Source: Octopus vulgaris (taxonomy: Eukaryota). Taken from it: a DNA stretch of 64,000 bases. Positions 739 to 25,661 of the stretch are shown piece by piece. The notes under the pieces are model-generated. The model saw nothing but the letters and a program-made list of their open reading frames with translations. It was not told the DNA's origin and made no database searches. The first letter of the stretch is position 1. Each line of letters starts with the position of its first letter. The stretch spans positions 9,424,001 through 9,488,000 of the forward strand of contig OX597823.1 of the NCBI GenBank assembly GCA_951406725.2, read 5' to 3'. Both the position numbers and the translations under genes were made by a program.

Positions 739-1026
739 ATCACACATATAGGTATATTTGTCAAAGTGGGTGTATGTGTGTAAGCGCGCGCGCACACACA
801 CACAAACACGGATATATATACAGGCATATATATATATATATTCACGAATGGTATTAAAATGCCGAAACGTGATTTTTCAGTCTTGAGCAGAGAAAAGAAA
901 TGAATCATAGGATAACTTTTATGTGTCTAAGTAAAATAATAGTAATACTGGCGAATACGATGTTGATGATGATGATGATGATGACGACGACGATGATGAT
1001 GATGATACAAATGATGATAATAATCA

Positions 1027-2563: not shown

Positions 2564-3440
2564 CGAGGGGAACTGACAAAATTATCCACACTTTCGCTAT
2601 AACATATCCTTATTAATGACACATTGCCTTCTCTGCATGCACGTTATTGTGGTTACGTAATCGAAGTTTGAGCCTGATCGCGCCATTTTTCTTTTCTGGT
2701 TTATACTGTAAGCATGGCTGCCCCACTAGTAATGTGCATCAAAGAAGAACAAAGAGCTATGATCCGATTTCTTTGGTCGGAAGGTGTATCACAGGTGATG
2801 AAGCATGGGTCCATCATATGAGGCAAAATCCAAAAGAGAGCACAGTATAGAAACATCTTGGCTCGCCGGCGACAAAGAAGTTCAAGGTTCAATCTTCAGC
2901 GAGAAAGGTGATGCTAACCATTTTTTTTTTTTGTCTCTCAAAAGGACCTATACTGGAAGACTACCTGCAAAATTGGTGTACGTTTAATAGTGCATGATAC
3001 AGTGTTTTGCTGGCCAACAGACTGAAGCCAGCAATTTGCAACTAACGCCGAAGCTTATTGCCGAAGTAATTTTGTTGTTGCATGAAAATGTATGCTAACA
3101 CACGACCGCCCAAACCGTTGAAGCTATTAACCGGTTGAGTTTTTAGGTGCTGGAACAGATCTCATCCCTTCTGACTATCATATCTTTGGACTGCTCAAAT
3201 ATTGTTTACGAGGTCGTTGATTTCCTACAGATGAGGATGTGAAGAAAGCGCAGCATAAATTGTTGCACGACCAACAGAAAACCTTCTTCTTGGAAGGAAT
3301 ACATAAGCTTGTTCACTGCTTGATTAAGTGTATCGAAAAGGAAGGAGACTATATAGAAAAATGAGTTACTTGTTTATCTCCTACTTTTAGGTAAACACAT
3401 TGTAAAACCAAGAGTGCCTATAATTTTTTACGCTCCCTTG
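2564..3440 (+). mobile_element. Decayed, internally deleted mariner (Tc1/mariner DD34D) transposon; transposase pseudogene
   Basis: TA|CGAGGGG start with imperfect TIR at ~3412-3440. Frameshifted peptides RCITGDEAWVHH (2782), KKFKVQSSARKVMLTIF (2875), LLLHEN (3072), DLIPSDYHIFGLLK (3158) and KCIEKEGDYIEK* (3326-3364) match mariner catalytic-domain motifs. Confidence 0.92.
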
Positions 3441-3465
3441 TCTGTATACATACATACATTCATGG

Positions 3466-4017
3466 TAGATGCCCCCTCGTTATCGAGTATGACCATTGCA
3501 CGAAGCTTAATCAATGTTGTTATCGTGCAATGCCTGTGCAAGAAGATTTGTTTAAAGTGAAGAAAGGCTGTGCACTGAGTCAATCCCACTCACTAAGCAA
3601 CAGTAGCCATAATCCGAAAAGAAAAGCAAGTCAACATCATCGGTAACCACTGAGCCGCAGGTTTTATGTCGGAGCTATCCCAGTTACCTGAGTTACCTTT
3701 TCCTAGAAGGATTCCCTAACAAAGGCTAGGGGTGCTTCACTCCCAATGAACCGCGCGATCGGGTATTCAGTTCGATTATTTCTACGTCCCCGCGCATGAT
3801 ACAGCCTTAAGACATTTATTGGATGGCCGTTGACTCTCATGAGTTCCTCCGCCCTTTGATGGGTTTTGTTTTTCATCCCGCAGGGTGTCCAATAAACACC
3901 CTCCTCACCAAGCAAGCAAGCTTGGTGGGGTTGTCGGTTTAGTCGCCGATGACTCGACCATGCAACAGGTTGTACTGGGTTACATGTTACCAGTAGCACT
4001 CGAAAGTGACCTGACAT
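3466..4017 (-). mobile_element. Non-autonomous RTE-derived element (5'UTR-like part joined to an RTE-type 3' tail, no ORF)
   Basis: Minus-strand 3' end ATGGTCATACTCGATAACGAGGGGGCATC resembles the RTE/BovB terminal stem-loop; GC-richer, hairpin-rich 5' part; no RT ORF. Family assignment is from memory. Confidence 0.6.
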
Positions 4018-4274
4018 AATACATGCACACTTACATACACACACACATATCACATATATATATTTATATATGCATTTTCTTCACTAGTCTCAGTTCGGGA
4101 TCTGCGGCCATGCTAGGGCACCATATACATACATAGAACATACATACATTCATGCATACAAACACAAAACATATATAAATACACACACACATATGTGTGT
4201 GTGTGTATATACTAAAACCTCATGGGGTTTTTTGAGCAAAAAATACTTATAACTTATAACCCAGAAGCAAACTG

Positions 4275-4325: not shown

Positions 4326-4812
4326 GGCAGAATTAAACTAATGTAGATTATATAGTGATGAAGTAGAGGATGTAGCCTTTATGGTAATTAGCTATACAAA
4401 TGGACTTCAAACATTTGATGTTCGTGTACAAGAAAGTAATGGAGAAACAGGAAATACGTGCAAAGTAGTCTTCAAAATATAAAGACTCCCAGAACGTGAT
4501 GGAAACCATGTTGCGCTTCAACCAGTTGCTCTATTCTGACAGAATACAACAAGCAGATTTCAATTACTCTTCCTCTCACAAGAACCAGTGTTGCCACTTT
4601 TCCCATATACCTTTCATCATGTCTTTAAAAGGGAATAATATCAGCTCCCGTCACCGGCTGATTTACTTGGCATTTGAAGTTGATGTGGACTTATCCTGAG
4701 AAATGGGGATCTCTCCTCAACTCTTTCAAACACGTCTACGAATCCACGAAAATTGTTTTCTTTTCATCACAAACGGATTATGCTGGGACAATAATCACGA
4801 TAGAATCCACCT

Positions 4813-4966
4813 GAGTGGCTGTGTGGTAAGTAGCTTGTCTACCAACCACATGGTTCCGGGTTCAGTCCCACTGCCTGGCACCCTGGGCAAGTGTCTTCTA
4901 CTATAGCCTTGGGCGACCAAATCCTTGTGAGTGGATTTAGTAGACGGAAACTGAAAGTAGCTTGTC

Positions 4967-5021
<55 letters not shown>

Positions 5022-5240
5022 TGTGTGTGTTTGTGTGTCTGTGTTTGTCCCCTAGCATTGCTTGACAACCGATGCTGGTGTGTTTATGTCCCCGTTACTT
5101 AGAGGTTCGGCAAAAGAGACCGATATAATAAGTACTGGGCTTACAAAAGAATAAGTCCCGGGGTCGAGTTGTCGATTAAAAGGCGGTGCTCCAGCATGGC
5201 CACAGTCAAATGACTGAAACAAGTAAAAGAGTAAAAGAGT
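4813..5240 (+). mobile_element. SINE family A, near full length
   Basis: tRNA-like head, internal (TA)n(TG)n, 3' tail GGCGGTGCTCCAGCATGGCC.CAGTCAAATGACTGAAAC and (GTAAAAGA)n end. Confidence 0.92.
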
Positions 5241-24065: not shown

Positions 24066-25661
24066 GATTCGGTTGTACATAAGGTAAATGTGTTTGCAAG
24101 TTGTGGTTTCTTTTTTCCCATGCAACACTTATTTTAGTGCTGTAAACACCGTCTGATTGAATGGTACTACCGAGGTGTCGAAACCATAAAGATATCCATA
24201 GGGCAGCTGATGATGGAGGTATGTTGGATTGTTGGTATGCATATTTTTGTATATATCCTTTTGATATATAAGCTATATATATCAAGAGAGAAAGAGAGAT
24301 AGAGAGAGAGAGAGGTGATAAAGCAGATGAGTATAAACAGAGATAAGTTTAAGGCATATGTATATGTAGCAGAAACTACAGATGGTACAGTATGAAAAAA
24401 ATGAAAAGAAAAACAGAAAATATATACACATATATACATGCATATGTATCATATAACTGGATGGAGCTGAATCTCCTGAGTTCGTGCGCCTTTGATACGT
24501 TTTGTGTTTGATTTTACTTCATCCACGCAACGGGCCTGGTATTTGTGTTAATGGTTCGACATCCCGATAATACAAGACCCTGTATTGGATTACGTATTAC
24601 CAAACTAGTTACACCGAAGTGCGAACATATATATCCAGAACCTTACGTGAAATATAAAAGAAAGAATTTTATTTGGAAACGTCATTGAACTTGAGTTTGA
24701 GAGTAAGCATAGCAGCATTTTGGTATCATAGTTTTAATTTCACTATCTACGGACAATAGCATCGTTTAATAGGCAAAAAGAAATCGAACCAATTCCCCCC
24801 ACCACCCACCCACCCACTTCATTTGCAAGTAGAAGTATTGCTATATATAACTGATTATTTTTCCGTCTTCTGTTTTATTTGTAAAACCACGATTCGACTT
24901 ATTTTCAAGGAGAAACACTTACTGGGAATCACAATAAACATTTATGCAAATATTCCAGAGTTGTATTTGCTCTTTTAATGAATATATCTCTTAAACTACT
25001 TGGCAAAGTGTATTTTTTACATGTAATCGATAGAGAATCTAAAGGTAAATACATTTTATTATTAATCTTAACATAATAACGTAGTTTTGATATTCATACA
25101 TTAATTATTTCAAAACTGTATAAGCAATATATTGAATAAAATAGTCTTTCCTTTAATTTTCTAGAATATTTAAGATGGACGGAATACTGTCAAGAAGTAA
25201 CTATCCATAATGTCGTGAATAATTCAGAAAGCTCAAGGTGAGATTGTATTTCTAGATAAATAAAATCGCCTTGGATTATATGATTGAGATTCCGGGAGAT
25301 ATGTATTGTTGATTAACATGTTCTAGGACTTGTTTAGTTCTTATATTAAACGAAAACAGAAACTAAAAGCCCAGTGAGACTTAATTCGTTAAAAGGGAAT
25401 TAAAACAATAATACAAAGCACTCTCTAAAATTAAAATGGGGAAGGAATCAGCCATTATATCAACCTAGTTTTTGAATCAGAAAGAATGAAGGAAATATTG
25501 ACCGCGTTTAGTTCAGAACGTAAAACAGCATACCTAACACCTAATCATATTCTGCTAATCAACCAGTGGATACAACGGAAATAATAGGTTAAAAAATATG
25601 AGATAGAAACGGCCGCATCTTGCAACTGTCCTAGTACACTTAATATTTACTGACTACAAAT

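What the first reader, a model, noticed from the sequence alone, without database searches (positions are those of the whole stretch)
3920..4017. Candidate self-cleaving ribozyme at the 5' end of an RTE-derived non-autonomous element
Seen on the minus strand: ATGTC-AGGT-CAC(TTTCGA)GTG-C-TACTGG(TAACATGTAAC)CCAGTA-CA-ACCT-GTTGCATG. This forms a three-way junction (AGGT/ACCT, CAC/GTG, TACTGG/CCAGTA). The loop segment CATGTAAC can pair 8 bp with the downstream GTTGCATG as a pseudoknot. Its one G-U pair works only on the minus strand, the same strand as the RTE-type tail at 3466-3500. Further strong hairpins follow (plus-strand CACCAAGC/GCTTGGTG and AGGGTGT/ACACCCT). Known: RTE-clade 5' ends carry HDV-like and twister ribozymes that release the element RNA from read-through transcripts. 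The topology is twister/twister-sister-like, but it lacks their conserved nucleotides, and an HDV-like parse lacks P1 and has a non-consensus L3. Inference: a divergent or undescribed ribozyme, or another functional 5' structure.
Basis: partly seen in the sequence, partly recalled or inferred. Interest (0 to 1): 0.72.

Follow-up and report, generated by a model that had tools for sequence, protein, structure and literature searches.

The report
Flavivirus-type nuclease block heading RTE retrotransposons
The very start of this octopus jumping gene carries the sequence and pairing pattern of the knotted RNA that flaviviruses use to stop the cell's 5'-to-3' RNA-degrading enzymes, so it likely sets and protects the start of the element's RNA by blocking a nuclease rather than by cutting itself; this is untested at the bench.

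Summary
The structure is real, but it is not a known ribozyme. It is the first 58 nt (minus strand, 4016-3959) of a 555-bp non-autonomous RTE element; 1910 exact copies of its central hairpin lie in this genome. Its only Rfam match among 4227 families is the flavivirus xrRNA model RF01415 (23.6 bits, E 0.014, below the 54.5 cut-off). It shows the subclass-1a features: 5-bp P1, single C between P2 and P3, U.A-U triple positions, 2-bp PK1, PK2 three bases past P1, and a P4. An explicit descriptor passes it, 3 of 3 flavivirus loci, and 1 site in 24 Mb of random sequence. P2, P3 and the 4-bp PK2 core show compensatory changes across RTE lineages whose proteins share only 26-47% identity. In a young autonomous family, conservation begins exactly at the PK1 bases. 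Target-site duplications end 3-7 nt before P1, near the published Xrn1 halt site. Best reading: an Xrn1/Xrn2 roadblock that trims and shields element RNA. No RNA-end or nuclease data exist here, and I found no report in print.

The parts
3462..4018 (-). Bipartite non-autonomous RTE element (~555 bp): shared 5' module, family-specific middle, RTE-type 3' end; the exact 5' base is blurred by the (TATG)n flank
   Evidence: contig depth from four runs spans 3443-4017 and drops above 4017
3959..4016 (-). xrRNA-like core (subclass-1a fold)
   Evidence: Rfam RF01415 23.6 bits, E 0.014; parse; only descriptor hit in the 64-kb window
4014..4016 (-). 5' U-G-U: U4016 and G4015 are predicted to pair with A3971 and C3972 (PK1); U4014 is the predicted third strand of the U.A-U triple with A3994-U3974
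   Evidence: invariant in 10 of 10 aligned rows; conservation starts here in family 2
3966..4013 (-). P1, 5 bp: 4013-4009 with 3970-3966
   Evidence: 98% of cells paired, no compensatory change
3997..4008 (-). P2, 4 bp with UUCG loop; varies in sequence and length among families
   Evidence: 3 of 4 pairs with compensatory changes; longer forms
3996..3996 (-). Single C between P2 and P3 (subclass-1a discriminator)
   Evidence: invariant; defined in PMC8374639
3973..3995 (-). P3, 6 bp (3995-3990 with 3978-3973), and 11-nt loop L3
   Evidence: 100% paired, 2 compensatory pairs, both from the L192 family
3959..3986 (-). PK2 core: 3986-3983 with 3962-3959, three bases after P1; can extend to 7 bp in this copy
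   Evidence: 100% paired, 2 of 4 pairs with compensatory changes
3924..3958 (-). P4 hairpin directly after PK2
   Evidence: fold z -1.83; a hairpin forms here in the related families too
3812..3958 (-).
   Evidence: 64-91% identical between families; at shuffle level further downstream
3462..3500 (-). RTE-type 3' end, followed by a (TATG)n tail (3443-3461)
   Evidence: resembles the 3' end of autonomous L031/L032 by eye

Best explanation
The first 58 bases of this RTE element match the sequence and pairing pattern of a flavivirus subclass-1a xrRNA, and they likely fold into the same ring around their own 5' end and would stall Xrn1/Xrn2-type exonucleases a few bases upstream. Shown: the pairing pattern, its covariation, and its place at the exact 5' boundary of several RTE families. 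Inferred: (1) copies are transcribed inside longer host RNAs (introns, read-through) or as capped RNAs that are later decapped; (2) a 5'-monophosphate end arises upstream by debranching, decapping or an internal cut; (3) the exonuclease chews to the ring and halts about 2 nt before PK1, leaving unit-length, stable element RNA; (4) the element's reverse transcriptase, coming from the 3' side, unwinds the ring and copies to that end, so new insertions begin 0-4 nt before the PK1 U-G. The non-autonomous element keeps the module because it is needed in cis. This is the job that HDV-like and twister ribozymes do at other RTE 5' ends, done by a block instead of a cut.
For: Single Rfam hit of 4227 families is RF01415; it is also the top hit for L173 (22.6 bits, E 0.029) and L192 (14.9 bits, E 1.2). 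Same layout as three 10.8-kb flavivirus-sized genomes fetched by one pattern. A model built only from the retroelement sequences scores those three at 27.7-35.3 bits, while L138, a non-folding match to the same pattern, stays unlisted. Descriptor: 1 hit in the window, 3 of 5 viral-collection matches (the three flavivirus-sized ones), 0 of 30 copies of an unrelated octopus repeat, 1 hit in 24 Mb random. 7 of 24 pairs show compensatory change; 0 of 500 shuffles reach this, slid controls give 0-2. Core identity is 69-98% between families whose ORFs are 26-47% identical and whose later 5' UTRs do not align. Family 2 (17 copies): G 17/17 and T 16/17 at the PK1 positions, mixed bases one position upstream. 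Seven clear TSDs end 3-7 nt (median 5) before P1; the published halt is 5-6 nt before P1 (PMC5760640) or 2 nt before PK1 (PMC13161572). The L173/L217 family and the two L192 copies also start at this point with unrelated flanks.
Against: No nuclease assay and no mapped RNA 5' end. The Rfam score is far below the gathering cut-off, and the hit was not listed when 2 kb were scanned. Nested folding energy is ordinary. PK1, the triple and P1 never vary, so covariation does not test them, and for the metagenome hits those bases were imposed by my pattern. The PK2 changes come from two lineages and the P3 changes from one. The junction-closing pairs of P1 and P3 are U-A, whereas mosquito-borne xrRNAs have only C-G there. 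In family 1 the 5' bases can instead pair with the PK2 3' strand (MFE). The 0-4 extra bases could be untemplated additions after any precise 5' end. Only 16 of 30 position-ordered genomic copies still pass the strict descriptor, as expected for decaying copies but not informative. The descriptor was written after I saw the match.
Confidence: 0.7

Rival explanations
1. Same ring fold, but it only shields an RNA whose start is set by an internal Pol II promoter in the 5' module; it adds stability after decapping and does not define the end.
For: The ~130 nt after the core are also conserved across families (64-91%) and could hold promoter elements. A start site at the boundary would also give sharp 5' ends, and the autonomous RNA must be translated, which is easier with a cap.
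Against: The boundary coincides with PK1 and the published halt distance. The first extra base after the TSD is G in 1 of the 5 clear cases that have extra bases, whereas copying a cap tends to leave a G (recalled; small n).
Confidence: 0.14
2. An undescribed self-cleaving ribozyme that cuts just upstream of the U-G and releases the element RNA.
For: RTE 5' ends are known ribozyme sites (PMC5786205; PMC8501958). The 5' end is sharp and the fold has a twister/HDV-like order of strands.
Against: No ribozyme family at E<=10; twister core words absent; 0 HDV-like parses in 6 elements. The invariant bases are the ones the xrRNA model needs.
Confidence: 0.08
3. A structure with another role (binding site for the RTE protein, cap-independent translation start, or aid to 5' joining) whose likeness to xrRNA is a relic or a coincidence.
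For: The non-autonomous element keeps ~205 nt, more than the 58-nt core. A different octopus repeat matches a looser version of the pattern internally 254 times, so partial likeness can arise without this role.
Against: That repeat fails the full descriptor (0 of 30) and the model. The tertiary-contact bases stay fixed across lineages with 26-47% protein identity.
Confidence: 0.08

Closest known systems
Subclass-1a xrRNA of mosquito-borne flaviviruses (Rfam RF01415 Flavivirus_SLIV; PMC8374639, PMC7527734, PMC8571300)
   Same: Three-way junction with 5-bp P1 of nearly the same sequence, variable P2, single C before P3, U.A-U triple positions, 2-bp PK1, L3-based PK2 three bases past P1, P4 behind it; boundary at the halt distance.
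   Different: Sits at the 5' end of a nuclear-genome retrotransposon upstream of an ORF, in one copy, not in a viral 3' UTR; U-A instead of C-G at two junction pairs; 11-nt L3 on a 6-bp P3; scores below the Rfam cut-off; resistance not measured.
5' ribozymes of RTE-clade LINEs: twister in Perere-3 (PMC8501958) and HDV-like (Ruminski 2011, cited in PMC5786205; paper itself not held)
   Same: Same place (extreme 5' end of RTE elements, next to the TSD) and the same likely purpose: freeing unit-length RNA from host transcripts.
   Different: None of their conserved catalytic sequence; the end would be made by a host exonuclease halting, with the whole structure kept, not by self-cleavage.
Bipartite non-autonomous RTE elements (Bov-A, WALLSI3, RTESINE1/2; PMC5786205)
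   Same: 5' UTR start plus 3' tail of RTE, no ORF, no small-RNA head.
   Different: The retained head is an xrRNA-like fold; the 3' tail differs from that of the autonomous elements that share the head.
RTE-2_OV, the brain-expressed LINE of Octopus vulgaris (PMC9115989)
   Same: Family 2 copy L248 has an intact ORF of 1109 aa from its first Met, a ~600-nt 5' UTR, a C-terminal C2H2-like finger and a microsatellite after the ORF, as described for RTE-2_OV.
   Different: Identity rests on these features, not on sequence (not found in 8 supplementary files; 4 not searched). The passages read mention no 5' RNA structure.

Membership tests
Subclass-1a xrRNA | Three-way junction P1-P2-P3 with 5-bp P1 | tested here: met
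Subclass-1a xrRNA | Single conserved C between P2 and P3 | tested here: met
   C3996, invariant in alignments A1 and A2; definition
Subclass-1a xrRNA | PK1 of at most 2 bp between the 5' end and J3/1, second pair G-C | tested here: met
   U4016-A3971 and G4015-C3972 complementary in 10 of 10 rows; invariant, so no covariation support
Subclass-1a xrRNA | U.A-U base triple | tested here: inconclusive
   The three bases are in the right places and invariant; triple formation cannot be shown from sequence
Subclass-1a xrRNA | PK2 of 2-8 bp between L3 and the strand after P1 | tested here: met
   4-bp core, 2 compensatory pairs; range
Subclass-1a xrRNA | P4 helix after PK2 | tested here: met
   (prediction only, z -1.83)
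Subclass-1a xrRNA | C-G pairs closing the junction (typical of mosquito-borne members) | tested here: not met
   P1 and P3 close with U-A, P2 with C-G; described as typical in PMC13161572, where a design that only favoured G-C there still resisted
Subclass-1a xrRNA | Rfam RF01415 gathering score (54.5 bits) | tested here: not met
   23.6 bits; the model includes 3' flavivirus sequence that the element lacks
Subclass-1a xrRNA | Fold-dependent resistance to Xrn1, halt 5-6 nt before P1, 15-16-nt ring | not testable with these tools
   Only indirect: TSD-to-P1 distance 3-7 nt in 7 copies
Twister ribozyme | U-A-A cleavage loop, G-C of T2, conserved L4 and 3' G-A-G-G-G strand | tested here: not met
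   compared with Table 1 of PMC8501958; no Rfam hit
HDV-like ribozyme | Nested double pseudoknot with 3-bp P3, 7-8-nt L3, P1.1 and catalytic C in J4/2 | tested here: not met
   0 parses in 6 elements (descriptor without positive control); no Rfam hit
Twister-sister, pistol, hatchet, hammerhead ribozymes | Match to the family covariance model | tested here: not met
   no such family at E<=10
Any self-cleaving ribozyme | Site-specific self-cleavage in vitro | not testable with these tools
   bench assay needed
RTE-clade non-LTR retrotransposon (autonomous partner) | Single ORF with APE then RT, short 3' UTR ending in a microsatellite, TSDs | tested here: met
   Pfam PF03372, PF14529, PF00078; ORF and tails; clade name from this anatomy, no tree built

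The most novel reading that the evidence does not exclude
A lineage of animal RTE retrotransposons, probably including the brain-expressed octopus RTE-2_OV, uses a working flavivirus-type xrRNA, homologous to the viral one and exchanged between retroelements and RNA viruses, to turn host 5'-3' decay into the step that makes its RNA. It would be the first natural subclass-1a xrRNA with a job in a cellular genome, and a third way to make a LINE 5' end beside promoters and ribozymes.
Probability: 0.55. Interest if true: 0.92.

Novelty: new variant of a known kind. Interest (0 to 1): 0.83.

Why it matters
A 2021 review states that xrRNAs had been characterised only in viruses and asks whether eukaryotic genomes hold them (PMC8374639, section 7); the passages I read of a 2025 paper still treat them as viral (PMC12397905). 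This gives a 60-nt candidate that a one-day Xrn1 assay can test. If true, it explains how some LINEs without a ribozyme get exact 5' ends and why their short derivatives keep the 5' tip. It would put thousands of possible exonuclease roadblocks into octopus introns and termination zones, and raise the question of where the flavivirus fold came from. It would also supply non-viral xrRNA parts for RNA stabilisation.

Tried and rejected
Rfam scan of 2 kb: 24 weak matches, none a ribozyme, and RF01415 not listed. Manual twister, pistol, hatchet and HDV parses: none fits (known consensus partly recalled; twister). Loose hairpin pattern in the genome: 32 hits against 23 control, mostly chance, a few old copies. 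Two element-specific patterns in viral contigs gave 3 and 11 matches; none scored above 17 bits with my model. Of 49 metagenome matches to the 1a pattern, 43 fail the strict descriptor. Most are chance hits in bacterial-looking DNA; L192, L189, L190 and L203 fail it through a P1 or P2 defect but score with the model. A second octopus repeat (254 pattern hits) was rejected: internal position, P2 unpaired, 0 of 30 pass. RNA evidence: no RNA holder listed; both read-laying runs used contigs only and cannot show a start or strand. No clear TSD for the window copy (microsatellite flanks). TSDs in 8 of 15 family-2 loci were unusable: 2 without a 3' end in reach, 3 none found, 2 in (TA)n, 1 only 6 nt. 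L173's family was not found in G000, which suggests but does not prove another host species. Ruminski 2011 could not be read. Pfam did not confirm my hAT/BED label for L205. The RTE-2_OV sequence was not in the 8 supplements searched.

Full report
Observation. P1 is 5 bp, P2 is 4 bp with a UUCG loop, and the pseudoknot can have at most 7 bp because G3966 belongs to P1. Folding energy is not better than shuffles (z -0.10 and -0.61), so the case rests on other evidence.

The element. The window lies in a 2.8-Gb genome; that it is an octopus is my inference from its size and from the RTE-2_OV match below. A DNA search scored 40 of 1058 candidates and returned 30 loci. Most are ~555-bp copies of one non-coding element with an RTE-type tail; two (L013, L018) share only the first ~205 nt and run on into an APE-RT ORF (Pfam). 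An exact pattern for the P3 hairpin gives 1910 matches against 0 for the control. Of the first 30 by position, 19 start with the exact T-G-T-C-A-G-G word, 8 with a changed form at the same place, and 3 are clipped or rearranged (my count). This set was chosen by a hairpin 20 nt from the end, so it cannot measure deeper truncation. A pattern excluding the main family gave 250 matches (control 50) and revealed further families with different P2 stems.

What the fold is. A scan of the 81-nt region against 4227 Rfam families gave one match: Flavivirus_SLIV (RF01415), 23.6 bits, E 0.014, gathering score 54.5. It was not listed in the 2-kb scan. The defining features of subclass 1a come from PMC8374639 (parts 1-3 of 5 read), PMC7527734, PMC8571300, PMC13161572 and PMC5760640 (passages). 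They are a three-way junction, a single C between P2 and P3, a U.A-U triple, PK1 of 1-2 bp, PK2 of 2-8 bp, P4, and a halt 5-6 nt before P1. The window copy has bases for each in the expected register. One pattern for this core found 5 matches in 2.9 million viral contigs. Three are 10.8-kb genomes with the match near the 3' end; I read them as mosquito-borne flaviviruses from length and recalled sequence, not from a named record. Parsed side by side, they and the octopus element share a three-base spacer between P1 and the PK2 strand (read by eye for L137 and L139, where the script chose another register). A covariance model built from 10 retroelement sequences scores them at 27.7-35.3 bits; this is partly circular because the loci were found by shared bases. 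A strict descriptor, written after I saw the match, passes one site in the 64-kb window (G4015), the three flavivirus-sized loci, 6 of 49 metagenome matches, 0 of 30 copies of an unrelated repeat and 1 site in 24 Mb of random sequence.

Covariation. The metagenome scan (49 loci) gave homologues from other hosts. L173 has the fold at its 5' boundary and an APE ORF 400 nt downstream, 26-29% identical to the octopus proteins; L217 is a sister copy; L192 holds two copies of a third family. L173's family was not found in G000. On 10 rows, 95% of cells pair and 7 of 24 pairs change on both sides: 3 in P2, 2 in P3, 2 in the PK2 core. No shuffle of 500 reaches this, and slid structures give 0-2. The rows were chosen by me as family representatives and are related; the P3 changes come from one lineage and the PK2 changes from two; MAFFT shifts the L192 P2 by one column. 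PK1 and four P1 pairs never vary. The outer three pseudoknot pairs are not kept (73%). The core is 69-98% identical among six elements, the next 130 nt 64-91%, and the sequence beyond is near shuffle level.

The 5' boundary. Family 2 is young and inserts in varied sites. In 17 distinct copies the two PK1 bases are G 17/17 and T 16/17, and the base before them is mixed (A6 C1 G5 T5). Of 15 long loci, 7 gave clear TSDs of 8-13 bp, ending 2, 2, 0, 0, 4, 1 and 3 nt before the U-G, that is 3-7 nt before P1. This brackets the published halt site. It fits trimming of transcripts that carry each donor's own flank, but untemplated additions after any exact end would look similar. One copy (L248) has an intact 1109-aa ORF and a ~600-nt 5' UTR, as described for RTE-2_OV in PMC9115989 (passages). 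The sequence itself was not in the 8 supplements searched; 4 were not searched and may bear on this.

Mechanism. Shown: fold pattern, covariation, position. Inferred: the RNA forms the ring; upstream host RNA is removed by Xrn1 or Xrn2; the enzyme halts just before PK1; the reverse transcriptase passes the ring from the 3' side (recalled property of xrRNAs; primer extension was used to map halt sites). PMC5786205 (passages) notes that bipartite RTE derivatives keep the extreme 5' end and links this to ribozymes; an xrRNA head would explain it equally. An open problem is how an uncapped autonomous RNA is translated; the conserved 130 nt behind the core are a candidate. On origin: a designed xrRNA worked with only PK1 and triple bases fixed, so the near-identical P1 sequence favours shared ancestry over convergence. 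This is inference, and the direction of transfer is unknown.

Against. No nuclease or RNA-end data: no run on record as RNA held the stretch, and only contigs could be laid. Two junction pairs are U-A where mosquito-borne members have C-G. A competing 5' helix exists in family 1. The ribozyme reading fails every family test I could run but only a bench assay excludes a new class.

Novelty. Eight literature searches (listings and abstract starts seen) showed no report of an xrRNA in a retrotransposon. The library lacks most subscription papers. PMC13282606 (passages) has no mention of 'ribozyme'; the RF01415 mention in PMC12053375 is a benchmark row; PMC8501958 was read in part 3 of 9 and PMC12397905 in passages. 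One earlier unchecked note of this scan, e1-8666864, on another piece of the same genome, reached the same reading. I formed mine before seeing it (notes) and do not count it as support. Verdict: a real, conserved RNA element; works like a subclass-1a xrRNA with good probability; membership awaits the Xrn1 assay; new variant of a known kind; interest 0.83.

Noticed in passing
L175:1295-1364(-), L180, L185, L205, L215; L190:1834-1900(-), L210, L211: A well-formed 1a-like fold (C-G-closed P1, different PK2) inside two related animal-looking repeats from metagenomes. It is not at a LINE 5' end but downstream of a short ORF that looks like a DNA-transposon zinc finger (recalled; Pfam did not confirm). 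Model scores 20-30 bits.
   Followed up: partly
L203:1893-1953(+), L140: 1a-like fold just after the stop codon of an RdRp-like ORF (Pfam RdRP_3, E 0.01) in a contig that does not look like a flavivirus; its P3 opens with U-A as in the octopus element.
   Followed up: partly
L192:59-138 and 914-982(+): A ~180-nt repeat family from another metagenome begins with the same fold, has a longer P2 and its own P3/PK2 sequence, and ends in a LINE-like tail; two copies with unrelated flanks.
   Followed up: partly
L248 (G000:C5:3338200-3345200, minus): Full-length, intact RTE copy (1109-aa ORF, 10-bp TSD, about 98% identical to sister copies) that fits the description of RTE-2_OV.
   Followed up: partly
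window 24562-24630 (-): Old, decayed second copy of the same 5' module (16.8 bits, E 0.006).
   Followed up: partly
G000:C1:76632034-76632094 and C1:96231369-96231429: Further octopus subfamily with a 10-bp P2, showing that P2 length is free, as in flaviviruses.
   Followed up: no
L142-L171: An abundant octopus repeat with tandem hairpin units matches a looser 1a pattern 254 times, about 200 nt inside the element and on the strand opposite its apparent (GAT)n tail; it has an alternative A-U/G-C PK1 but no P2.
   Followed up: partly
window 2620-3365 (+): Broken mariner-like transposase fragment next to the element's 3' end (Pfam Transposase_1, E 0.014, weak).
   Followed up: partly
window 4810-5225 (+): tRNA-headed SINE-like repeat interrupted by a (TA)n run (label recalled, not tested).
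   Followed up: no
L031, L248, L173, window 3812-4016: The ~190-nt 5' module is far more alike between RTE families than their ORFs or 3' tails, which points to strong selection or to swapping of heads between families.
   Followed up: partly
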